Below, piece after piece: positions 4,511 through 19,945 of a DNA stretch of 20,000 nucleotides; the stretch's first letter is position 1, and every line of letters begins with the position of its first letter. The notes below the pieces were generated by a model. The model searched no databases. It had not been told where the DNA came from and worked only from the letters and a program-made list of their open reading frames with translations. The translations under genes were made by a program, and so were the position numbers. This DNA is from an uncultured virus (IMG/VR IMGVR_UViG_2061766007_000736) (lineage: Duplodnaviria; Heunggongvirae; Uroviricota; Caudoviricetes): IMG/VR virus record IMGVR_UViG_2061766007_000736; one strand, given 5' to 3'.

Positions 4511-5239
4511 ATGGCAAAAACACAAGATTTAACAGGGATGAGTTTTGGAAGATGGAAAGTTTTAAATTTAGCATTTAGAAAAAATGGAAAAATATATTGG
4601 CATTGTCAATGCCAATGTGATAAAAAAACAGAAAAAGATATTCAAGGACAACATTTAAAAGAAGGACGCTCTAAAAGTTGCGGTTGTTTAAGAAAAGAAC
4701 TTATCTCTTAGAAAACTAAAATTAATATGATAGGACAAAAATTTGGACATTTGATTGTTATTGCTTAGGCAAAAAGCAGTAAAGATAGACATGCTCAATG
4801 GCTTTGTCAATGTGATTGTGGAAATCAAAAAATTATTTTAGGAAAAAGTTTAAGAAATGGTAGCACTCAATCATGCGGATGCTTAAAATCAAAAGGTGAA
4901 GAAAAAATTATAAAACTTTTGAAAGAAAATAATATTTCTTTTTAGACAGAAAAAAGTTTTAATAATTGTAGATATACTGATACTAATTTTAAAGCAAAAT
5001 TTGATTTTTGGGTTAATAACTAGTATATTATCGAATATGATGGAAAACAGCATTTTGGAATTGGAGGATGGAATGATGAAAATAATTTTAAAATTATTCA
5101 ATAGCATGATTATTTTAAACAAGCATGGTGTAAAGAAAATAATATTCCATTGATTCGTATTCCATATACTCATTTATCTTCTCTTTCTATAAAAGATTTA
5201 TTATTAGAAACATCTCAATTTAAGGTATAGGAGGTATAA
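4511..5239 (+). CDS. Free-standing putative homing endonuclease (2x CxC...SCGC Zn repeat + Vsr/DUF559-like EYDGxQH nuclease), 242 aa with TAG as sense
   Basis: Continuous frame through TAGs at 4709, 4766, 4943, 5021, 5102 and 5228 to TAA at 5237-5239. Motifs WHCQCQC..SKSCGC, WLCQCDCG..TQSCGC, SKGEEKI, FDF, IEYDGKQH, LIRIPY. Confidence 0.85.
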
Positions 5240-6513: not shown

Positions 6514-7438
6514 ATGGTTCCAATAATTTTTAGTATTATATTTTTAATATGCGGTGGTATACTCTATTATAAGGCCCACCGCATAAAAATTGAAAAAAAT
6601 ATATAGCAATAGCAGTATAATAAAGAATTATTTGAATATAAAACCAATTTAGAACAAGAAGTTGAAAGAGTTCAACAGAGAAAGAATGATGAACAACTTT
6701 TAGTTCAGCAAATTTTAGAGCTTAAAAAACAAAGAAAATAGGAATTAGAAAATGATTTTTAGAAAGAACAAAATCTAATTCAATTAAAACTTCAAAAAGC
6801 GCAAGATAATTGTGACCGCTAGATTGNNNNNNNNNNNNNNNNNNAAAATAAGATAGTCTGCTCGCGAGTAGGCTAAACAAATACAAGAAGATATTAATAA
6901 ATTAAAAAATTCTTTAAGTGCCAGTGTCGAAGCACGTCTCCGCGAACAAGAGAAAAAAGAAAAAATTAATTTTTATAAGTTATCTATCACTGATGCGGAT
7001 TTAGCAGATGTTAAAATGTTAGAAAACTTAAAAGTATCTTTTCATAAACCTGTTGTTTTAAGTAAACTTATTTGGACTCAATATTTTCAAAAGCAAATGA
7101 CAGAATTATGCGATAGGGTTTTGGGAAAGAATGTAATTTGTGGAATTTATAAAATTACTAATTTATTAACTGAACAATGTTATATTGGACAAAGTGTTAA
7201 TATTGCAGATAGATGGAAGCAACATTGTAAATGCGGTTTAGGTATTTAGGCATCTGCAACAAATGTTTTATATAATGCTATGCAGCGAGATAAAATTTGG
7301 AATTTTTCTTTTGAATTACTGGAGGAGTGTCCAAGAGAATTATTAAATGAGAAAGAGCGTTTTTGGATAAATATGTATCAAAGTAATAACTATGGTTATA
7401 ATAGTAACGCAGGAGTAAAGAGTGCCAGCAAAAATTAA
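6514..7438 (+). CDS. N-terminal TM helix + coiled coil + C-terminal GIY-YIG nuclease (8 in-frame TAGs; spans an N gap of inexact length)
   Basis: AAGGAG SD. MVPIIFSIIFLICGGILYY hydrophobic start, E/Q/K-rich helix, then CGIYKITNLLTEQCYIGQSVNIADRW...LNEKERFWI...GYN. Ends TAA at 7436-7438. Confidence 0.8.
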
Positions 7439-8127
7439 ACATTAGATAGGTTAGATTATTAATACAAATAAAATATTAGAAGAAATAAGAAAAAATCATA
7501 AAATTTATTATAGAGTAGAATGTATTTTATGTCATAATATTAGATAGGTTAGAGCAGATAATTTAAATCAGACTTGTCGTTCCTGTGCAGCAAAAATTAG
7601 AGATAAAAAATATTCTAAAGTAAAAAAAGATTTAACAGGTCAACGATTTGGTAATTGGATAGTTATAAATAAAGCCTAGAAAACTAATTATTGGCATTGC
7701 AAAGACATTGAAACCGGAACGGAAAGAGATGTTTTTAGAGGCAATTTAACACAGGGCCTATCTAAAGGAGACGGTTCTGTTTTTTCTTGGGGACAAAGGC
7801 AAATTATTTATTTACTAAATTAGAATAGTCTTTCATATATAACAGAATGTACTTTTTCAGATTTAAAAACAGATAAAAATGGGACTCCAAGATTTGATTT
7901 TGCTATTATGGACACGCATAATAATGTCTATTGTTTAATAGAATATGATGGAAGACAACATTTTTATTATGATAAAAATTGGAAAATGTCAAAAAAAGAT
8001 TATTAGAGATTACAATATATAGACAATTTAAAAAATTAGTATTGTAAAATCCATAATATAAAGTTATATAGATTTAATAAAAATTCTATTTTATAGGAAT
8101 AGATTAATCAAATTGCACAAGAATTTT
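7422..8127 (+). CDS. Free-standing putative homing endonuclease (EYDGxQH family; GTG start; 9 in-frame TAGs; end in gap)
   Basis: AGGAG SD then GTG at 7422. CILC...CRSC, DLTGQRFGNW, RFDFAI, CLIEYDGRQH. TAGs at 7443, 7452, 7545, 7677, 7821, 8004, 8037, 8094, 8100. Confidence 0.8.
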
Positions 8128-8143
8128 NNNNNNNNNNNNNNTA

Positions 8144-9016
8144 ATGAAATTTGAACATACTTAGGTATTTAATTTTTAGGGAGCTTTTAGAGGACTTAGA
8201 AATCCCAAAAATAGTTGGAATAAAAGCGACAGCTTTTTTGGAATTATACCTATTGATTCTTATGATTACGAATCTGATGTAGCAGATAAATGGATCGGTT
8301 TTTCACATCCATAGTTAAAATGGCCTCAAGAATATACTGAAGAAGGATATAATCTTGAAGAACAGTATTGTGAAAAATTAATTAAAGATGGTGTATTAAG
8401 ATTAAATGATAATGATGAAATGGCAGAGGTTGCTTTTATTGGTCCTAATGATATGAAATTAGCACAAACCTTAATTAAAGGCGGCCCTGAACATCGTAAG
8501 TTTTTACGACAGATTTTTGTTTCTGTTGACATTACCGCGCCGCTTTATTGGTGGAAATAGATGGACACTTATAAAGTAGGAACAGTTGCCAACAGTACAT
8601 CAACAATGCACAAATTGGCAAGTAAGCCAATCACTCTTGATTGTTTTGAAACAGATGATTTTAATTAGGATTTAGTATATTACGAAATTCCAGGTGCGGC
8701 AAATGAAGTTGGTATGTTTGCAGACTTTATGATTGAACAACTTGAATTTCTTCGCCAGAAATATCTTGAAACAAAAGATAAAAGATATTGGAAAGAACTT
8801 GTGCGATGGCTGCCTTGTGGATGGCTCCAGACGAGAACTTGGACAGCTAATTACGAGACTATCCGCGCTATTTGTCACCAACGCCGCGACCATAAATTAA
8901 ATGAATGGAGTGGTAAAGATGATTCGTCTAAGGATACTTTTATCGCGTGGGCGCGTACATTACCATATGCTCAATATTTAATTTTTGATGATTAGAATGT
9001 TCCTTTTCAAATTGAA
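8144..9016 (+). CDS. thyX: Phage ThyX-like (flavin-dependent thymidylate synthase family) protein; 6 in-frame TAGs; end in gap
   Basis: GAFRGLRNPKNSW, GPEHRKFLRQIFVSVDITAPLYWWK*MDTYKVGTVANSTSTMHK, LP..WLQTRTWTANYETIR...RRDHKLNEW. TAGs at 8162, 8177, 8312, 8558, 8666, 8993. Confidence 0.75.
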
Positions 9017-10767: not shown

Positions 10768-10785
10768 ATTATAGAAAGGATAATT

Positions 10786-12840
10786 ATGGCAAATATTGAT
10801 ATTCTTAGTATTTAGCCTCATCAAGTCAGTAGAGATTTAAGAGGATATTCTATCTTTTTCTATGGTGAGAGAGTTTAATGGTTGGCTCACCCTATATAGT
10901 AATATATAGTAAAAAATTCTTAGAAAAATAGGGGACGGCTGAGATGCTTGCCCTAGCGGAAGTTATTAAGTAATATTAATAACACGCACAACGCATTGGT
11001 ATGAAACTAATTTTAAGGGAGATTGCTCAAAAATGAACAACCAAGAAATAATAAAGGCTTATGAAGATGGCGCTTCTTTAGCTTCATTAAGCAGACAAAC
11101 AGGTTTATCTACTTATAAAATTAAAAAAATATTACAAAATAATTCAGTTAAAATTAGAACTCGTTTTGAACAGACTATTTTTACAAATATGTCAAGAGGA
11201 AAACAGATTAATCATAATTATTTTGATGAATTAAATAATGAAAAAGTATACTATTTAGGTTTTCTTGCGGCAGATGGATGCGTAAGACCAAATAGAAATG
11301 AAATTAAAATAGGATTATCTGCAATAGACCGAGAATGGCTTGAAGAATTTAAATTAAAATTAAATTCAGAACGAGAAATCGAAGACTATATTACTGGTAA
11401 AGGATTTGCTGTTAGTGAATTAAAATTTTCATCATTAAAAATAAAAACTGAATTAGCTAAATACAGTATTATTCCTAATAAAACTTATTTAGGAATTACA
11501 ATGAAAGCTATTCCAGATAAATATAAATTAGCTTTTATTAAAGGATATTTTGATGGTGATGGTTGTTTTGTTTTTAATAAAAACACAAAACAGTGTTCTT
11601 NNNNNNNNNNNNNATTTTAGAAGAAATATCTTATTTTTTTAGAGCTGGTAATATTTATTCACATGGGAAAAATTTTGAATTAGATTTTTCAACTAACCCA
11701 ACATTAAAAATAATGGAATTATTTTATAATTTANNNNNNNNNNNNNNNNNNNNNNNNNNNNNNNNNNNNNNNNNNNNNNNNNNNNNNNNGGACGCCTCAA
11801 AAGAGGATGAAAGTTTATGCTGAACTTATACGAATATGAAGTATAAGAATTATAAGATAAAAAACTTATAAGATAACAAAATGCCAAAAAGCGGTAAAAC
11901 AACAACTGCTTCAAAATTTTAGAATAATTTGCTTCTGGCTTTTGAAAAAGGTTACAATGCTATTCCAGGGGTTATGGCTCAACCCATTAATAACTGGGCT
12001 GAATTTAGAAAAGTTCTTAGACAATTAAAAGACCCAAAGGCAAAAGAAAGATTTTATACTATTACAATAGACACATGTGATATTGCATATGATTATTGCA
12101 CAAAATACATTTGTGATAATGCTCTTCGTCCAGATGGCGGATATGGCGTAGATAGTATAAGTGACATCCCATATGGTAAGGGTTATGGTCAAGTTTCAAA
12201 AGAATTTGATGAATGTTTAAGGTCTATCGTCATGATGGATTATGGACTTATTCTTATTTCGCACGCAACTGATAAAGTTTTTAAAGACGAATCAGGTGCA
12301 GAATATAATAAAATTGTACCAACTCTTGATAAAAGAGCTAATAATGTTGTAGCTAGAATGGCAGATATAATTGGTTATTCAAGAATTGTTACCGATAAAG
12401 AGGGACATACTTCAACTAAATTATTTATGCGTGGGACTCCACGATATGAAGCAGGTTCAAGATTTAAATATACACCAGATTATATTGATTTTTCTTATGA
12501 TAATTTAGTAAATGCTATTGGAGATGCTATTGATAAACAAGCTAGAGAAGATGGCAAAGATTACTTTACCGATAAGAGAAATAATCTTTATAAAGACACG
12601 ACTGAAGATCTTAATTTCGATGAACTTATGCGGAATTGTAACGATTTGATTCAGTCTATGATTAGTAATAATTCTGATGAAGTCTTTGTTCAATATTATC
12701 AACCTCGTATTATTCAGATTACTGATAAGTACCTGGGTCGAGGTCAAAAGATGAGCCAATGCTCAAGAGAACAAGTTGAAGCTCTATCTTTAATTCTCGA
12801 CGATCTTCTCTTACTTTCCAAAGAGGCGCCATCAGAATAA
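10786..12840 (+). CDS. AAA_24/Sak4-like P-loop ATPase, join(10786..10869,11884..12840), 346 aa after splicing
   Basis: Exon 1 MANIDILSI*PHQVSRDLRGYSIFFYGE plus exon 2 PKSGKTTTASKF*NNLLLAFEKG restores Walker A GEPKSGKT. Walker B TITIDT, LISH, AGSRF. TAGs at 10813 and 11920. SD AAAGGA. Confidence 0.88.
10870..11883 (+). ncRNA. Group I-like self-splicing intron with an internal LAGLIDADG ORF
   Basis: IGS TTGGCTCACC (10882-10891) is complementary to the ligated exons GGTGAG|CCAA. P2 CTATATA-GTAA-TATATAG; P4 TAGGG/CCCTA; P6a GTTATTAA/TTAATAAC; P7 GCAT (10993-10996)/ATGC (11817-11820); hairpins CCTC/GAGG, CTTATAC/GTATAAG, TTATAAG/CTTATAA; terminal G at 11883. Confidence 0.85.
11033..11823 (+). CDS. 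Intron-encoded double-motif LAGLIDADG homing endonuclease with N-terminal HTH (3' end uncertain, two N gaps)
   Basis: YEDGASLASLSRQTGLSTYKIKKIL (HTH), YYLGFLAADGCV and AFIKGYFDGDGCF motifs. The frame continues after the gap as ILEEISYFF... Confidence 0.88.
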
Positions 12841-13453: not shown

Positions 13454-14994
13454 GTTCAAAATATGTAGATATATCTGCGAATATGCAAGTGATTGGTGAC
13501 GTTTTTATAAACCCTTCTCTATTGGATTTAGAAGATAAATATAAATTTAATGAGCAGGATTTTCCGCAAGAGTTTCATAAGATTTTATTTGGTTCAATTT
13601 ATAATCTTCATCAACTTGGAATGAAACAGATTTCTATTGAAGATATTGAAAAATATTTAGAGCAAAGACCAAAAAAATATGCCGTTTATAAAGTTAATAA
13701 AGGCTCTGAATATTTAGAGAATATAAAAGAAATGTGCCAATTAGCAGCATTTGATTATTATTACAGTCGAATGAAGAAAATGACACTTTTAAGAATGTAT
13801 AATCAAAATGTAGGAATGGATTTATCTTGGCTTTATGACCCTGATAATATATTAGATATAAAGCGAAAAGAAGCTCAAGAAACCTGGTTTGATAATACTT
13901 CGATTAACGAAATAGCTAATACTATTAATGATAAGATAGATGAAATTAAAGCAAAATATGTTGATAATTCAGAAGATGGGGTTATCCAAGCTGGAGATGG
14001 TGCGGCTGCGCTGTTAGAAAGATTACGAACAAATCCTGAAATTGGTTATCCTCTATATGGGAGATTAGTTAACACAATTCATAGAGGAGCCAGATTAAAA
14101 AAGTTTTATTTGCGGTCTGCAGCCACAGGTGTCGGAAAGACGCGTTCTATGATTGCAGATGCCTGTCATATTGCTTGTAATAAAATTTATAATCTTGAAA
14201 CCCAACAATGGGAAAATAATGGAACTCGTGAACCTACTCAATTTATTACAACAGAGCAAGAAGAAGATGAAATTCAAACTATGATGATGGCTTTCTTGTC
14301 CGGTGTTAATGAAGACCACATCCTTGAAAATACATATGTCGGAGATGAATGGGAACGAGTAAATGAGGCTGCCGCAATTCTTTCAAAAAGTCCTTTATAT
14401 ATTAAAAAACTTCCAGATTTTTCATTACAAGATATTGAGAATACAATAAAATTTGGTATTCGTCAATATGGTGTGAGATATGTCTTTATGGATTATATCC
14501 ATTCTAGTATGAAAATTCTTAGTGAAATTAGTTCAAAAGCTGGAGTAAAAGGGCTAAGAGAAGATAACATTCTTTTTATGATTAGTGTAAGAATCAAAGA
14601 TTTATGCAATCAGTATGGTGTATTTGTAATGTCAGCTACGCAGTTAAATGCAGATTATGTATCAGCTCAACAGTATGACCAAAACCTATTGCGTGGCGCA
14701 AAAGCTATTGCAGATAAAATTGACTGTGGTATGATTATGTTACAGACCAGTCAAGATGATAAAGAAGCATTAAAAGCTATTATTGATTCAATGGGCATTG
14801 AAATGCCTGATATAAAAATCTCTGTTTATAAGAATAGGCGCGGCCGCTATAAAGATATACTACTCTGGTGTAAATCTGACAGAGGTACTTGTCGTTTTCA
14901 TCCTATTTTTGTAACTAATTATAATTATGAATTATTAAGTATTGAAGATTTAAAAATTAAAGTAACACCTAGAATTGAAAGTAGTGCTTTTTGA
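13450..14994 (+). CDS. dnaB: DnaB-like replicative helicase
   Basis: Walker A SAATGVGKT, ITTE, VFMDYI, ATQLN, LRGAKAIADKID, KNRRG. Confidence 0.92.
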   Translation: MSSKYVDISANMQVIGDVFINPSLLDLEDKYKFNEQDFPQEFHKILFGSIYNLHQLGMKQISIEDIEKYLEQRPKKYAVYKVNKGSEYLENIKEMCQLAAFDYYYSRMKKMTLLRMYNQNVGMDLSWLYDPDNILDIKRKEAQETWFDNTSINEIANTINDKIDEIKAKYVDNSEDGVIQAGDGAAALLERLRTNPEIGYPLYGRLVNTIHRGARLKKFYLRSAATGVGKTRSMIADACHIACNKIYNLETQQWENNGTREPTQFITTEQEEDEIQTMMMAFLSGVNEDHILENTYVGDEWERVNEAAAILSKSPLYIKKLPDFSLQDIENTIKFGIRQYGVRYVFMDYIHSSMKILSEISSKAGVKGLREDNILFMISVRIKDLCNQYGVFVMSATQLNADYVSAQQYDQNLLRGAKAIADKIDCGMIMLQTSQDDKEALKAIIDSMGIEMPDIKISVYKNRRGRYKDILLWCKSDRGTCRFHPIFVTNYNYELLSIEDLKIKVTPRIESSAF

Positions 14995-15005
14995 GGTATT
15001 TTAGT

Positions 15006-15680
15006 ATGGGAGCTTTATTAAAATTATAGGGAGAGAGATTTGGACGATTAACTGTTTTATTTCGTAGTCCAAATAAAGGACATAGAACAGTTTGGCATTG
15101 TAAATGTGATTGTGGGAATGAAGTTGACGTACTTACAGATCATTTACGAAGTGGTCATACTCAGAGTTGCGGTTGTTTGCAGAAAGAAAGGATTTCAAAA
15201 GCTAGAAGTTCTGATTTATTAAATTAGCGATTTGGAAAATTAAAAGTAATTGAAAAAACAAATGAAAGATTAAATGGATTTATTCTATGGAAATGTCAAT
15301 GTGACTGTGGCAATATTATAAAGGTTAGAACTCCAGACTTAACTTCAAAACATACTCAAAGTTGTGGATGTGTCTTATCAAAAGGAGAATAGAAAATTAG
15401 TCAATTATTACGAGAAAATAATATATTATTTGAAACACAAAAAAGTTTTAAAGATTGTCGATTTTCAGATAGTAATTATATGGCTTATTTTGACTTCTAT
15501 TTACCAAAATATAATTGTTTAATTGAATATGATGGGAGTCAACATTTTAAATATAGAGATAGTGGTTGGAATACAAAATAGAATTTTTTAAAAACAAAAA
15601 AACACGATCTTTAGAAAAATAAATATTGTTGGAATAATAATTTAAATCTTATTCGAATACCATATACTTATTTTGATAAT
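15006..15680 (+). CDS. Free-standing putative homing endonuclease (2x CxCDCG...SCGC + EYDGxQH; 5 in-frame TAGs; end in gap)
   Basis: GAGG SD, ATG at 15006. WHCKCDCGN..TQSCGC, WKCQCDCGN..TQSCGC, SKGE*KI, FDFYL, IEYDGSQH, LIRIPY. TAGs at 15027, 15225, 15390, 15579, 15612. Absent from the ORF track. Confidence 0.87.
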
Positions 15681-15723
15681 NNNNNNNNNNNNNNNNNNNN
15701 NNNNNNNNNNNNNNNNNNNNNNT

Positions 15724-15876
15724 ATGATTGAAGTCATAACCACTTGTCAAGGTAATCCAAAAGTTAAATATAAAGGATATAATTTTTTTAAAGCTATATA
15801 TATTTGGATAAGAGAGTGGTATATATATCATAAATATCATACAATGAATTTTTGTTTAAAATTTAAAATAAGATAA
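15724..15876 (+). CDS. Small hypothetical protein (50 aa)
   Basis: MIEVITTCQGNPKVKYKG...; fills the space before the next SD. Confidence 0.55.
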   Translation: MIEVITTCQGNPKVKYKGYNFFKAIYIWIREWYIYHKYHTMNFCLKFKIR

Positions 15877-18142: not shown

Positions 18143-19945
18143 CAAACAAAAATTTTTCAACAATTTAGCAAATTTTATATAATAGAGGGATAGCGCAAGA
18201 TGATATTCTGCATTATGTAAATCTATCTGACCAGGATATTAATTCTCCATTGTTATTAGGAAAGTAGAATTTAAAAAATGGAACAATAGCTTTATCAACT
18301 GCCATAGGTTTGCAACGGGATGCTCTAGTTGTCGTAGATTGCGATTGTGATGGATATACATCTGCCGCACTTCTAATCAATTACTTATATAAAATTTTTC
18401 CCACATGGGTAGAAAATCATTTAACTTGGTATATGCACAATGGCNNNNNNNNNNNNNNNNNTTGATTTTATTATGAATAAAAACCCAGGTTTAGTAATCT
18501 GCCCAGACTCAAGCAGTAATGATTATGATTATCATAAAAGGTTAGCAGATAAAGATATTTCAGTTTTAGTTTTAGACCATCACTTAGCAGACCATATTAG
18601 TGAATATGCAATAGTTATTAATAATCAACTATCTGATTATCCTAATAAAGAGCTTTCTGGAGTTGGAGTAGTATGGCAATTTTGTCGATACCTTGATTCT
18701 TGTTTAGGCTTAAATTATGCAAATGATTTTCTTGACCTTGTTGCTCTTGGAAATTGCGGAGATATGATGTCATTACGGTCTTTTGAAACTCGTTATCTAA
18801 TTACTAAAGGATTTAAAAAAGAAAATATTAAAAATCCTTTTATCGACTATATGATTGATAAAAACTCTTTTCCTTTATCAAAAGCAGATTATGTTCCTGC
18901 AGATTCCAGTATGGAATGTACATCAATGGGCGCCGCCTTCTTTATTGTTCCTTTTGTTAATGCTATAACAAGAAGTGGTACATTAGAATAGAAATATTTA
19001 CTTTTTAATTCTATGTTAAATCACAAAGCATTTTAGGAAGTTTTATCAAACAAAAGAGGTCACAAACTTGGTTAGAAAGAAAAATTAATTTTACAAGCAA
19101 TTAGAACTGCCACAAATGTTAAAAATAGACAGACAAGAGCAGAAGATGCTGGATTAGATATGTTAGAAAAAATGATTGAAACTAATCATATGCTTGACCA
19201 TAAAATTCTTCTATTTTTATTAGAACCTGGTCAAATAAATCCTGAAATTCGTGGTTTAATTGCAAATAAATTTATGGCAAAATATCAAAGACCCTGTTGT
19301 TTATTAACGCGTACAACAATAAAGAGAGATGTCCTTATCCAACTTATTTGCTGTGAACATAAAGAACTTCCTAAATTTTTTTAGACATCAGAAACAAAAG
19401 AAGTTATCGCTTATTAGGGGTCAATGCGAGGATACACAAAAACTGGAATTAATAGTTTTAAAGAAGTGCTTGAACAATGTCCAGGAGTTTTGTATGTATA
19501 GGGACATGATAATGCGGCGGGGCTTGGTATAGAAGCAAATTATATAAATGATTTTCTTTATAAGATTGATTAGCTTCTCAAAGACGTTCCTGTTGACCCT
19601 ATTTATCGAATAGATTATGATTTTAAAGAAACTGATAATAATAATCAACGAATTTTAGATATTGCTAATATGAATGATTATTGGGGCCAAGACGTTGACC
19701 GAGCATATGTAAATATTAATTTTAAAATTACAAATTCCAATTTTCAGATTATGAAAAGTAATACTTTAAAATTTAATTTACCAAATGGACTGTCTATTAT
19801 AAAGTTTGGTGGAACANNNNNNNNNNNNNNNNNNNNNNNNNNNNNNNNNNNNNNNNNNNNNNNNNNNNNNNNNNNNNGTCGAATCTATCCACAACTTATT
19901 ATGTAGGATTATGAAATTATAGATTCATCTAAATATTTCTTTTAA
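18143..19945 (+). CDS. recJ: RecJ-like DHH-family ssDNA exonuclease (start in gap; 10 in-frame TAGs)
   Basis: ILYNRGI, VDCDCDGYTS, ICPD, VLDHH, LSGVGVVW, DLVALG..GDMM, GLIANK, GSMRG, GHDNAAG. TAGs at 18166, 18265, 18989, 19034, 19073, 19382, 19415, 19499, 19571, 19904; ends TAA at 19943-19945. Confidence 0.92.

What the first reader, a model, noticed from the sequence alone, without database searches (positions are those of the whole stretch)
10864..11887. Group I-like intron with a non-canonical 5' splice site (G-C, no U-G wobble) and a variant P7
Seen: removing 10870-11883 restores Walker A GEPKSGKT. The guide TTGGCTCACC is the exact reverse complement of the ligated junction GGTGAG|CCAA, which fixes the register. 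The 5' exon ends in G paired with C. Shifting the junction by one base gives the same mRNA, but the intron would then end in U rather than G. Established: group I introns normally use a U-G pair at the 5' splice site, a terminal G, and a P7 of the GACUA/UAGUC type. Here P7 reads AAC-GCAU / AUGC-U, which keeps the G-C guanosine-binding pair but swaps its neighbours, while P2, P4-P6 and P8/P9-like helices are recognisable. Inference: a divergent ribozyme subclass with altered splice-site selection that standard models may miss. P3' probably lies in the N gap.
Basis: partly seen in the sequence, partly recalled or inferred. Interest (0 to 1): 0.8.

Follow-up and report, generated by a model that had tools for sequence, protein, structure and literature searches.

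The report
Phage intron cut after G-C pair
A self-splicing-type (group I) intron with its own homing nuclease splits a DNA-repair ATPase gene of a rumen phage, and it marks its first cut site with an ordinary G-C pair where nearly all such introns, including its own close relatives, use a U-G wobble pair.

Summary
Removing 10870-11883 joins ...FYGE|PKSGKT..., the same ten residues (FYGEPKSGKT) as in an uninterrupted Enterococcus phage Sak4-like ATPase. The guide TTGGCTCACC (10882-10891) is the exact complement of the joined exons.

The intron belongs to a very large phage and bacterial group I family of the IA2 kind. Its helices covary strongly, and a model of its 3' half also finds the introns of phage Twort. 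The P7 variant ACGCAU/AUGCU is the norm in this family, and Rfam's group I model misses the family.

The P7 variant is not linked to the odd splice site. Hand-checked relatives with the same P7, including a second intron in the same gene of a sister phage, use U-G.

The G-C splice pair is confined to one lineage of four contigs. One of them carries a compensatory exon/guide change (GGCGAG/CTCGCC), which argues that P1 is under selection.

In this lineage two joining regions next to the P1 docking site also differ from otherwise invariant family residues. Splicing itself was not observed.

Precedents are the group B IStrons, which splice after G but keep a shifted U-G, and earlier unchecked notes of this scan on other phage DNA. 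I rate it a new variant of a known kind.

The parts
10786..10869 (+). Exon 1 of the Sak4-like (AAA_24) ATPase gene: 28 codons with one in-frame TAG. It ends with the first half of Walker A (YGE).
   Evidence: Aligns to the N-terminus of the uninterrupted VRE9_3 protein.
10864..10869 (+). P1 5' strand (GGUGAG). G10869 is the last exon base and pairs with C10886.
   Evidence: the MFE fold forms this helix. In L143 the exon reads GGCGAG and the guide CTCGCC, a compensatory change.
10870..11883 (+). Group I intron, 1014 bases as shown, of which 69 are masked as N.
10882..10891 (+). Internal guide sequence. UUGG (10882-10885) pairs with the first four bases of exon 2 (P10). CUCACC (10886-10891) pairs with the last six bases of exon 1 (P1).
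   Evidence: single match, 0.01 expected by chance.
10892..10909 (+). P2 hairpin: CUAUAUA, loop GUAA, UAUAUAG.
10917..10923 (+). P3 5' strand (UUCUUAG). Its partner is CUAAGGA in relatives; in the window only GGA (11790-11792) is visible after the N run.
   Evidence: P3 covaries in the family: 6 of 7 pairs carry compensatory changes.
10929..10955 (+). P4-P5 with L5 UGAGAU. The internal loop J4/5-J5/4 reads GAC/UG, where most relatives have AA(N)/UAA.
   Evidence: Column 187 is A in 15 of 15 family rows and U here.
10956..10987 (+). P6 hairpin.
   Evidence: 9 of 10 family pairs carry compensatory changes.
10991..10996 (+). P7 5' strand: A, bulged C, then GCAU. G10993-C11820 sits where the guanosine-binding pair would be.
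   Evidence: The strand is invariant in the family. In the aligned Twort introns UAGUCU lies opposite the family's UAUGCU.
11033..11823 (+). LAGLIDADG homing-endonuclease ORF, placed in the loop of the extra helix between P7 and P3' (P7.1 type). It runs on through P3', P8 and J8/7, and its stop codon TGA lies inside P7'. The two N runs interrupt it, so its frame in the window cannot be followed.
   Evidence: LAGLIDADG_3, E 4.5e-9; phrog_4645, E 1.3e-39; 271 aa and intact in L048 and L121.
11793..11809 (+). P8 hairpin: CCUC, loop AAAA, GAGG, with two outer pairs.
11810..11816 (+). J8/7 (AAAGUUU). G11813 replaces an A that is invariant in 63 of 63 family sequences outside this lineage.
11817..11821 (+). 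P7 3' strand (AUGCU).
11825..11871 (+). P9 (11825-11847) and P9.1 (11850-11871). The P9.1 loop AUAAAAA(A/G) is conserved in the family.
   Evidence: z-score -4.15.
11883..11883 (+). Terminal G of the intron (omega G).
   Evidence: It stays G in L121, where the preceding base changes from U to C. A G stands at this aligned end in all 63 rows of A3, but the ends of those rows were set by a script that looked for a G.
11884..12840 (+). Exon 2 of the Sak4-like ATPase (PKSGKT... to the stop codon), with one in-frame TAG.

Best explanation
This is a mobile group I intron of the phage IA2 kind. It carries a LAGLIDADG homing endonuclease and sits inside the Walker A codons of a Sak4-like (AAA_24) recombination ATPase gene of a TAG-recoded rumen phage.

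The intron's guide sequence pairs with the last six exon-1 bases (P1) and the first four exon-2 bases (P10). The transcript should therefore be cut after G10869 and rejoined to C11884, restoring GEPKSGKT.

Shown here:
- the exon junction;
- the guide complementarity;
- membership of a covarying intron family;
- that the family normally uses a U-G splice pair;
- that this lineage has G-C, with one compensatory P1 change;
- that the intron is nearly identical between phages whose exons have diverged, which indicates recent horizontal spread by homing.

Inferred:
- that the ribozyme really cleaves after a Watson-Crick G-C pair;
- that this is made possible by lineage-specific changes in J4/5-J5/4 and J8/7, the joining regions that dock P1 and read the wobble pair in other group I ribozymes, or by help from a protein.
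For: Junction:
- The uninterrupted homologue reads FYGEPKSGKT.
- Exon 2 lacks AAA_24 profile positions 1-10.
- A contig in run X1 joins 10866 to 11883 with TA between them, giving ...GGT TAG CCAAAA. That is an intron-less allele, or a spliced form, with the same junction.

Guide:
- The 10 of 10 complement occurs once in the window, against 0.01 expected by chance.

P1 is under selection:
- L143 has exon GGCGAG with guide CTCGCC, where the window, L048 and L121 have GGTGAG with CTCACC.

Family and fold:
- 51 pairs were counted on 15 ORF-less members. 94.8% of cells are paired, against 34-42% when partners are slid. 32 pairs carry compensatory changes.
- The window keeps 54 of the 61 invariant family columns it covers.
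- A model of the 3' half, trained without this lineage, scores the window at 69.8 bits, E 2.5e-12.
- The same model hits phage Twort three times, each in the gap of a split gene or beside an intron nuclease gene. Each hit scores about 30 bits, with E about 1e-3 per genome.

The family norm is U-G:
- L047 and L040 lie in the same gene, 3 bases downstream.
- L003, L004 and L046 lie in capsid genes; L012 and L001 in tape-measure genes.
- A second intron in the same gene of the L121 phage also has U-G.

Mobility:
- Window versus L048: non-coding intron parts are 98.8-100% identical, exons 84-88%, and the upstream gene 67%.

Against a separate start for exon 2:
- In L121 the intron ends ACG, not ATG.

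Precedent for splicing after G:
- BcISt1, by RT-PCR (PMC4227781, section 18 read in full and passages found).
Against: - No spliced RNA was seen. The two RNA runs laid (X5 and X6) do not cover the junction. The joining contig comes from a run labelled 'RNA? (probably DNA)' and differs by one base, so it may be an intron-less DNA allele.
- In the Anabaena intron, swapping the first pair from T-G to G-T abolished the reaction, and the authors require a pyrimidine at that exon position (PMC12355055, passages). A purine before the cut may therefore be a severe handicap.
- The near identity of the intron between phages means it spread recently, so long-term selection for splicing is shown only by the single compensatory change in L143.
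- P7 never varies, so covariation neither supports nor refutes it.
- The window's two N runs are shorter than the matching stretches of L048 and L121 (13 versus 26 bases, 56 versus 80). If the runs keep true length, this copy has lost bases in the nuclease ORF and near P3'.
- Rfam's group I model gives no hit.
Confidence: 0.68

Rival explanations
1. It is a group I intron that landed at this site recently by homing and splices poorly or not at all because it lacks the U-G pair. The phage tolerates a weakened or lost Sak4-like protein, and the perfect guide match reflects the way the intron arrived.
For: - The intron is 98.8-100% identical between phages whose exons are only 84-88% identical, which indicates recent spread.
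- No RNA evidence for splicing was obtained.
- G-T in place of T-G abolished the Anabaena reaction.
- The N-run lengths may point to deletions in this copy.
Against: - The compensatory exon/guide change in L143 is hard to explain without selection on P1.
- Exon frames and Walker A are kept intact in all four contigs.
- The ribozyme core keeps 54 of the 61 invariant family columns it covers.
- The nuclease ORF is intact in L048 and L121.
Confidence: 0.2
2. Splicing after the G-C pair depends on a protein helper, such as the intron's own LAGLIDADG protein acting as a maturase or a host RNA chaperone. The ribozyme alone is inactive.
For: - LAGLIDADG proteins with maturase-like activity and host chaperones such as StpA are known for bacterial and phage group I introns (PMC3984707, passages).
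- Every copy of this lineage seen over its full length carries the nuclease ORF.
Against: - Nothing here tests it.
- Related introns with U-G also carry LAGLIDADG ORFs, so the ORF is not specific to the odd splice site.
Confidence: 0.15
3. Exon 2 is translated on its own from ATG 11881, and the intervening DNA is a free-standing nuclease gene between two genes.
For: The last three intron bases, ATG, are in frame with exon 2.
Against: - L121 has ACG at that place.
- No purine-rich ribosome-binding stretch precedes it.
- Walker A would lack its first glycine, and the 28-codon exon 1 aligns with the homologue's N-terminus.
- The intervening DNA carries a complete covarying ribozyme fold.
Confidence: 0.03
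4. The true 5' cut is after U10866 (GGU|GAG), a pyrimidine as in other group I introns, which gives a protein one residue shorter (YGPKSGKT).
For: - That position is U in three contigs and C in L143; these are the two bases known before group I cut sites.
- The product stays in frame.
Against: - That base forms a U-A or C-G pair in the middle of P1, not a wobble pair at its end.
- P10 would no longer abut P1.
- The product would break the G-x4-GK[ST] spacing (a textbook motif, recalled) that VRE9_3, SPbeta YorG, L047 and L040 all keep.
Confidence: 0.04

Closest known systems
Group I introns of Staphylococcus phage Twort (nrdE and the split structural gene near 17 kb). From recall, these are the IA2 introns shown to self-splice, one of which has a solved structure.
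   Same: The 3' halves share one layout: J8/7, P7', GAAC, a P9 hairpin with a GGAAAC-type loop, GAAG, P9.1, then (G)UAACA...UUG. The family model hits all three Twort places at about 30 bits. An extra helix lies between P7 and P3'. Homing-nuclease ORFs sit in loops.
   Different: Twort has the usual P7 (UAGUCU on the 3' side), where this family has UAUGCU. The window lineage also lacks the U-G splice pair. The link to the published self-splicing work is from recall; the calls show only that the hits lie in gaps of split genes.
Group B IStrons, for example BcISt1 of Bacillus cereus ATCC 10987 (Tourasse et al. 2014, PMC4227781)
   Same: They are IA2-type group I ribozymes whose 5' exon ends in G instead of U. 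The splice pair lies at the end of the P1 stem, next to a loop. Splicing after G was proven by RT-PCR.
   Different: IStrons keep a U-G pair: the U is the first intron base, so the cut is shifted by one position. In the window the first intron base is A, and the pair at the cut is a Watson-Crick G-C. IStrons carry IS607-type transposase genes, not a LAGLIDADG nuclease.
[quoted passage not shown] Only the reference listing was seen; the paper is not held.
   Same: A Watson-Crick pair replaces the wobble pair at the cut site.
   Different: Those introns keep a pyrimidine on the exon strand and G in the guide. Here the purine is on the exon strand and the guide base is C.
Rfam RF00028 (Intron_gpI)
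   Same: The same order of helices. The second intron of the phiCD211 tape-measure gene, right beside a member of this family, matches RF00028 at 41.7 bits.
   Different: There was no match to the window (E up to 10). There was also none to the phiCD211 member of this family, whether searched at E up to 10 on 621 bases or with three other loci at E up to 0.1.

Membership tests
Group I intron | An internal guide sequence pairs with the 5' exon end (P1) and the 3' exon start (P10). | tested here: met
   10 of 10 contiguous complement at 10882-10891. A compensatory change occurs in L143.
Group I intron | Conserved core: a P4-P6 stack and a P3-P8 stack, joined by the P3/P7 pseudoknot. | tested here: met
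   P3, P4, P5, P6, P8 and P9.1 covary in 15 family members: 94.8% of cells paired and 32 compensatory pairs. The window keeps 54 of the 61 invariant columns it covers. P7 is complementary but invariant, so covariation does not bear on it.
Group I intron | A guanosine-binding G-C pair in P7 next to a bulged base. | tested here: inconclusive
   A-[C bulge]-G-C-A-U faces A-U-G-C-U, which places G10993-C11820 after a bulged C. That matches the layout of RF00028 and phiCD211 intron 2, but binding cannot be tested here.
Group I intron | The intron ends in G (omega G). | tested here: met
   G11883. It is kept in L048 and L121 even though the base before it varies.
Group I intron | [quoted passage not shown] | tested here: not met
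   G10869 pairs with C10886, and the same holds in all four contigs of the lineage. Hand-checked relatives meet this feature. This is a near-universal property of the class rather than part of its definition, and proven exceptions exist.
Group I intron | Guanosine-dependent self-splicing. | not testable with these tools
   The only read-laying run gave no RNA across the junction.
Subgroup IA2 (phage type) | Extra helices between P7 and P3' (P7.1/P7.2) and an extended P9 domain (P9.0, P9.1...), as described in PMC4227781. | tested here: met
   A covarying helix lies between P7 and P3' (columns 248-252 with 302-306; 4 of 5 pairs compensatory). P9 plus P9.1 are present. The 3'-half model finds the Twort introns. 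GISSD subgroup models are not available here, so there is no formal subgroup call.
LAGLIDADG homing endonuclease (intron ORF) | Two LAGLIDADG motifs in one chain. | tested here: met
   Pfam LAGLIDADG_3, E 4.5e-9, two stretches. The motifs are read as LGFLAADG and IKGYFDGDG. The ORF is a full 271 aa in L048 and L121. The window copy is masked in part.
Sak4-like / AAA_24 ATPase (host gene) | Walker A P-loop and the AAA_24 domain. | tested here: met
   AAA_24, E 1.7e-32. phrog_124 Sak4-like, E 3.2e-45. 53.6% identity to the Enterococcus phage Sak4-like proteins.

The most novel reading that the evidence does not exclude
One lineage of a common phage group I ribozyme has changed how it reads its 5' splice site. 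It cleaves after a Watson-Crick G-C pair, with the purine on the exon strand. It manages this because the joining regions that normally read the U-G wobble and dock P1 have changed with it:
- J4/5-J5/4 is GAC/UG instead of tandem adenines;
- an invariant J8/7 A has become G;
- the top pair of P7 has been lost.

If so, natural sister ribozymes in the same gene, one using U-G and one using G-C, would form a ready-made pair for working out what the wobble pair is needed for. They could also free engineered group I systems from the need for a U at the cut site.
Probability: 0.35. Interest if true: 0.7.

Novelty: new variant of a known kind. Interest (0 to 1): 0.55.

Why it matters
[quoted passage not shown] One source describes the exon base there as 'virtually always a U (or exceptionally a C)' (PMC4227781). 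It is also treated as a design rule for engineered circular-RNA systems (PMC12355055).

A natural intron that keeps a perfect guide, shows a compensatory change in P1, and has G-C at the cut would show that the rule can be broken in a new way, provided it splices. Close U-G relatives are at hand for swap experiments.

As a result, genes split by it are annotated as fragments, for example in phiCD211, Lbo-JY46 and crAss cr128_1.

Tried and rejected
- **Rfam.** No match at gathering scores on the whole window. At E up to 10 on 10780-11960, only two chance snoRNA matches appeared. Four related loci searched at E up to 0.1 gave nothing.
- **Reads.** The one read-laying run used four contig-only runs. 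RNA runs X5 and X6 gave no cover of either junction. The one joint (10866 to 11883, with TA between) is in a run labelled 'RNA? (probably DNA)', so splicing is neither shown nor excluded.
- **Automatic splice-site assignment.** Four scripts searched for P1/P10 without assuming U-G, and all were noisy.
  - In one search, 34 of the 62 loci with a solution had U-G at or tied for the top score.
  - In one search, 19 of 47 distinct sites were U-G alone and 9 more were ties that include U-G.
  - Several non-U-G calls were wrong when checked by eye or by protein homology: L004, L024, L040 and L048 itself.
  - I therefore rely on hand-checked cases and give no family-wide percentage.
- **Covariation in P7.** The two loci with AUGCC in place of AUGCU (L375 and L002) showed no recognisable 5' strand in the DNA held.
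- **Own genome.** None is held for this window.
- **More lineage members.**
  - The 17-base P4-P5 pattern gave 3 viral loci, of which 2 are real.
  - It gave 120 metagenome loci, of which 80 were fetched. Five of these also had the P7 motif within 140 bases; two (L143 and L189) belong to the lineage and the rest are chance matches in GC-rich DNA.
  - A P2 pattern found only the two known viral contigs.
- **T4.** The best hit of the 3'-half model is weak (E 0.23) and is not used.
- **Earlier findings.** A look-up by sequence returned nothing.
- **Intein and group II readings.** Rejected: there is a stop codon three codons into the intron, and no reverse transcriptase or domain V-like element was seen.
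Full report
**What is in the window**

The window is phage DNA in which many long frames are open only if TAG is read as a residue: 35 ORFs of 80 aa or more with TAG=Q, against 24 under table 11, and several frames with 5-9 in-frame TAG codons.

At 10786 a 28-codon frame starts. It reads MANIDILSIQPHQVSRDLRGYSIFFYGE and stops being readable at 10869. At 11884 a 318-residue frame, PKSGKTTT..., runs to 12840.

The second piece is an AAA_24 / Sak4-like ATPase. It matches Pfam at E 1.7e-32, starting at profile position 11, and phrog_124 at E 3.2e-45. The closest named relatives are the Sak4-like proteins of Enterococcus phages, at 53.6% identity. The uninterrupted VRE9_3 gene reads MANTIDIFNVEPHKVSKDLKGYAVMFYGEPKSGKTTTA.

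The two window pieces are therefore the two exons of one gene, and the joined protein must read FYGE|PKSGKT. At the nucleotide level only two cuts give this mRNA: after G10869 and G11883, or one base to the left of both.

**The intervening 1014 bases**

They begin with a stop codon in the exon frame (TAA at 10876), so this is not an intein. They hold a LAGLIDADG ORF that starts at 11033 (Pfam LAGLIDADG_3, E 4.5e-9; phrog_4645, E 1.3e-39).

The 10-mer TTGGCTCACC at 10882-10891 is the exact complement of the joined exons. It occurs once in the window, where 0.01 matches are expected by chance.

Plain energy folding of the non-coding parts gives these helices:
- P1 (GGUGAG/CUCACC) and P2;
- a P4-P5 arm and P6;
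- P8, P9 and P9.1 (z-score -4.15 for the 3' part).

Two N runs (11601-11613 and 11734-11789) hide part of the ORF and most of P3'.

**A large family**

The last 80 bases of the intron are 77-82% identical to unannotated DNA between the halves of split genes in several phages:
- the tape-measure gene of C. difficile phage phiCD211;
- the DNA polymerase gene of Leptolyngbya phage Lbo-JY46, which also has a LAGLIDADG ORF;
- the major capsid genes of crAss-like phage cr128_1 and of bajarodcaudo virus.

A 17-base core pattern found 112 viral stretches and 120 stretches in bacterial and archaeal genome assemblies.

I aligned fifteen ORF-less members whose ends I had fixed by hand. RNAalifold recovered P3 (a long-range helix), P4, P5, P6, an extra helix between P7 and P3', P8 and P9.1.

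I then counted the full structure, with P7 written in as a pseudoknot. It gives 94.8% paired cells, against 34-42% when partners are slid by 1-3 columns. 32 of the 51 pairs carry compensatory changes, and none of 500 shuffles reached any of the five measures. P7 (6 pairs) and the base of P9 never vary, so covariation says nothing about them.

The helix order, the P3/P7 pseudoknot, the guide sequence and the terminal G are those of a group I intron. The extra helix after P7 and the extended P9 domain are the marks of subgroup IA2, as described in PMC4227781 (passages).

**Link to proven group I ribozymes**

I built a covariance model of the 3' half from 63 family sequences, leaving out the window's lineage.
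- It scores the window at 69.8 bits (E 2.5e-12), L048 at 84.2 bits and L121 at 83.4 bits.
- In the whole genome of Staphylococcus phage Twort it gives three hits of about 30 bits (E about 1e-3 per genome; 1e-4 on the 9 kb around them).
- One hit lies in the gap between the two halves of the ribonucleotide reductase large-subunit gene. Two lie between a structural gene and an 'intron encoded nuclease' gene.

From recall, these are the Twort introns shown to self-splice, one of which has a solved structure. The calls show only their positions and the aligned layout. In the alignment, Twort has UAGUCU where the family has UAUGCU.

**P7 and Rfam**

In phiCD211 two introns lie side by side. The second has the usual ACGACUA/UAGUCU P7 and matches RF00028 at 41.7 bits (E 3e-9). 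The first is a member of this family and gives nothing at E up to 10. The window gives nothing either.

Compared with the usual P7, the family keeps the bulged base and the G-C pair that follows it, and it swaps the next two pairs (A-U, C-G becomes C-G, A-U).

It is the family norm, not a peculiarity of this intron. It is invariant in 15 of 15 aligned members. The 3' strand is invariant in 63 of 63 further sequences, but the pattern used to collect them fixed that strand.

Whether the variant is already represented in the GISSD subgroup models could not be tested. A 2025 study notes that IA2 is heterogeneous and that RF00028 alone gives only partial hits in phage introns (PMC11878797, passages). 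Another reports that over half of viral group I introns are IA2 (PMC11835236, passage).

**The splice site**

Members of the family that I checked by hand have a U-G pair closing P1, directly followed by the loop that holds the P10 guide.

| Locus | Host gene | 5' junction and guide |
|---|---|---|
| L047 | Sak4-like, 3 bases downstream of the window's site (FYGEP\|KTGKT) | GAGCCU\|AGGUUUUGGGC |
| L040 | Sak4-like, same site as L047 | GCGCCU\|...GGGGCG |
| L003, L004, L046 | capsid | AAGGGU\|...GCCCUU |
| L012, L001 | tape measure | AUGCU\|...GGCGU |
| L026, L044, L080 and others | various | U-G |

In the L121 phage the same Sak4-like gene holds a second intron of this family. It reads GAUACGGU|GAAUGUUUGCCGU, with a six-pair P10 and a U-G pair.

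The automatic searches that did not assume U-G were noisy and are reported under Tried and rejected. I give no family-wide percentage.

The window's lineage consists of four contigs: the window, L048 (the same contig as L119 and L189), L121 and L143. All read GG(U/C)GAG|AGAGUUUAA(U/C)GGUUGGCUC(A/G)CC.

In L143 the synonymous exon change GGT to GGC is matched by A to G in the guide. That is a compensatory change in the fourth pair of P1 counted from the cut. It is the best evidence that P1 forms in this register and is under selection.

In L121 the base before the terminal G changes (AUG to ACG) while the G stays. This also removes the ATG that could have started exon 2 separately.

**Derived state and accompanying changes**

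By similarity of the core, the nearest relatives of the lineage are L059, L060, L022 and L047. Where I could read their junctions (L060, L022 and L047), they have U-G. G-C is therefore the derived state.

Against the family alignments the lineage differs at 7 of the 61-70 invariant columns it covers. Three of these lie beside the place where P1 docks in other group I ribozymes (structural knowledge of the Tetrahymena, Azoarcus and Twort ribozymes, from recall):
- the J5/4 A (column 187) is U, and the whole J4/5-J5/4 loop reads GAC/UG instead of AA(N)/UAA;
- an A in J8/7 that is invariant in 63 of 63 other sequences is G (11813);
- the top A-U pair of P7 is a U-U mismatch.

That these changes compensate for the loss of the wobble pair is an inference from a single lineage. 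J4/5 reading GAC also occurs in one U-G member (L033), so only the J5/4 and J8/7 changes are specific to the lineage.

**Mobility**

Between the window and L048:
- the non-coding intron parts are 98.8-100% identical;
- the nuclease ORF is 97.1% identical;
- the exons are 84-88% identical;
- the upstream gene is 67% identical.

The intron has therefore moved between diverged phages recently, as expected for homing.

In L048 and L121 the nuclease ORF has 271 codons, contains no TAG, and ends with a TGA inside P7'.

**Is it spliced?**

This is not shown. The single read-laying run used contigs of four bovine-gut runs. One contig of run X1, labelled 'RNA? (probably DNA)', joins 10866 to 11883 with TA between them, which gives ...GGT TAG CCAAAA. 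It has the predicted junction but TAG in place of GAG, so it comes from another strain. It may be an intron-less DNA allele, that is, the homing site. The two RNA runs do not cover the junction.

**What is known**

Tourasse et al. state that the last exon base is 'virtually always a U (or exceptionally a C)'. They showed by RT-PCR that the IA2-type IStron BcISt1 splices after a G. In that element a U-G pair is still present, with the U as the first intron base (PMC4227781, passages and section 18).

In the window the first intron base is A, and there is no U-G pair at or beside the cut.

In the Anabaena intron, T-G to G-T at this position abolished the reaction (PMC12355055, passages). C-G splice pairs were reported in 1995; I saw only the reference listing.

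This scan's own earlier notes, which are unchecked AI notes on other DNA, record another phage group I intron with a G-C splice pair and several with C-G or A opposite G. The scan has therefore met this kind of exception before.

**Verdict**

This is a real, mobile group I intron of a very common phage family that Rfam does not capture. The P7 variant is ordinary within that family. The G-C splice pair is a rare, derived state confined to one lineage. It is supported by protein homology, guide complementarity and one compensatory change, but its activity is untested.

Noticed in passing
window 4511-5239, 7422-8144, 14991-15731, 18440-19945 and others: Many long frames are open only if TAG is read as a residue (5-9 in-frame TAG codons each). 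Where the window and L048 have TAG in exon 1, L121 has CAA (Gln). An intron-less contig has TAG where the window has GAG. No suppressor tRNA lies in the window.
   Followed up: partly
L047, L040, L021, L060, L022, L059, L371 (L121 phage): Sak4-like ATPase genes of different phages carry introns of this same family at five or more sites: GE|P, EP|K, W(A/G)|(E/D), DT(C/V)|DIAYD and PYG|KGY. A single gene holds up to two of them. This gene looks like a hot spot for the family.
   Followed up: partly
L249, L255, L263, L347 (Bacilli MAG contigs): Close relatives of the intron core sit inside what reads as a tRNA gene with anticodon loop CUCCAAA (CCA, Trp). The insertion lies between the anticodon stem and the loop, with a canonical U-G pair. 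ARAGORN did not call the split genes.
   Followed up: partly
L001 2294-2870 (phiCD211 tape-measure gene): Two group I introns lie back to back, separated by a mini-exon of roughly 25-33 bases. Only the second is annotated (Intron_gpI). The first belongs to the family described here, and the gene is annotated as two separate tape-measure proteins.
   Followed up: partly
window 11601-11613 and 11734-11789 versus L048 and L121: The two N runs are 13 and 56 bases long, while the matching stretches in both relatives are 26 and 80 bases. Either the masking does not keep length, or this copy carries deletions. A 13-base deletion would shift the frame of the nuclease ORF.
   Followed up: no
window 11593-11823; L048 and L121: The homing-nuclease ORF does not end in its loop. 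It reads through P3', P8 and J8/7, and its stop codon TGA lies inside the 3' strand of P7. Ribozyme core and protein-coding sequence therefore overlap for about 60 bases.
   Followed up: partly
L371 / G002 38851-38955 and 7074-7173: The contig of the L121 phage holds at least three introns of the family (85.3, 83.4 and 68.7 bits). One has AUGCC instead of AUGCU in P7', and its 5' strand was not found in the DNA held.
   Followed up: partly
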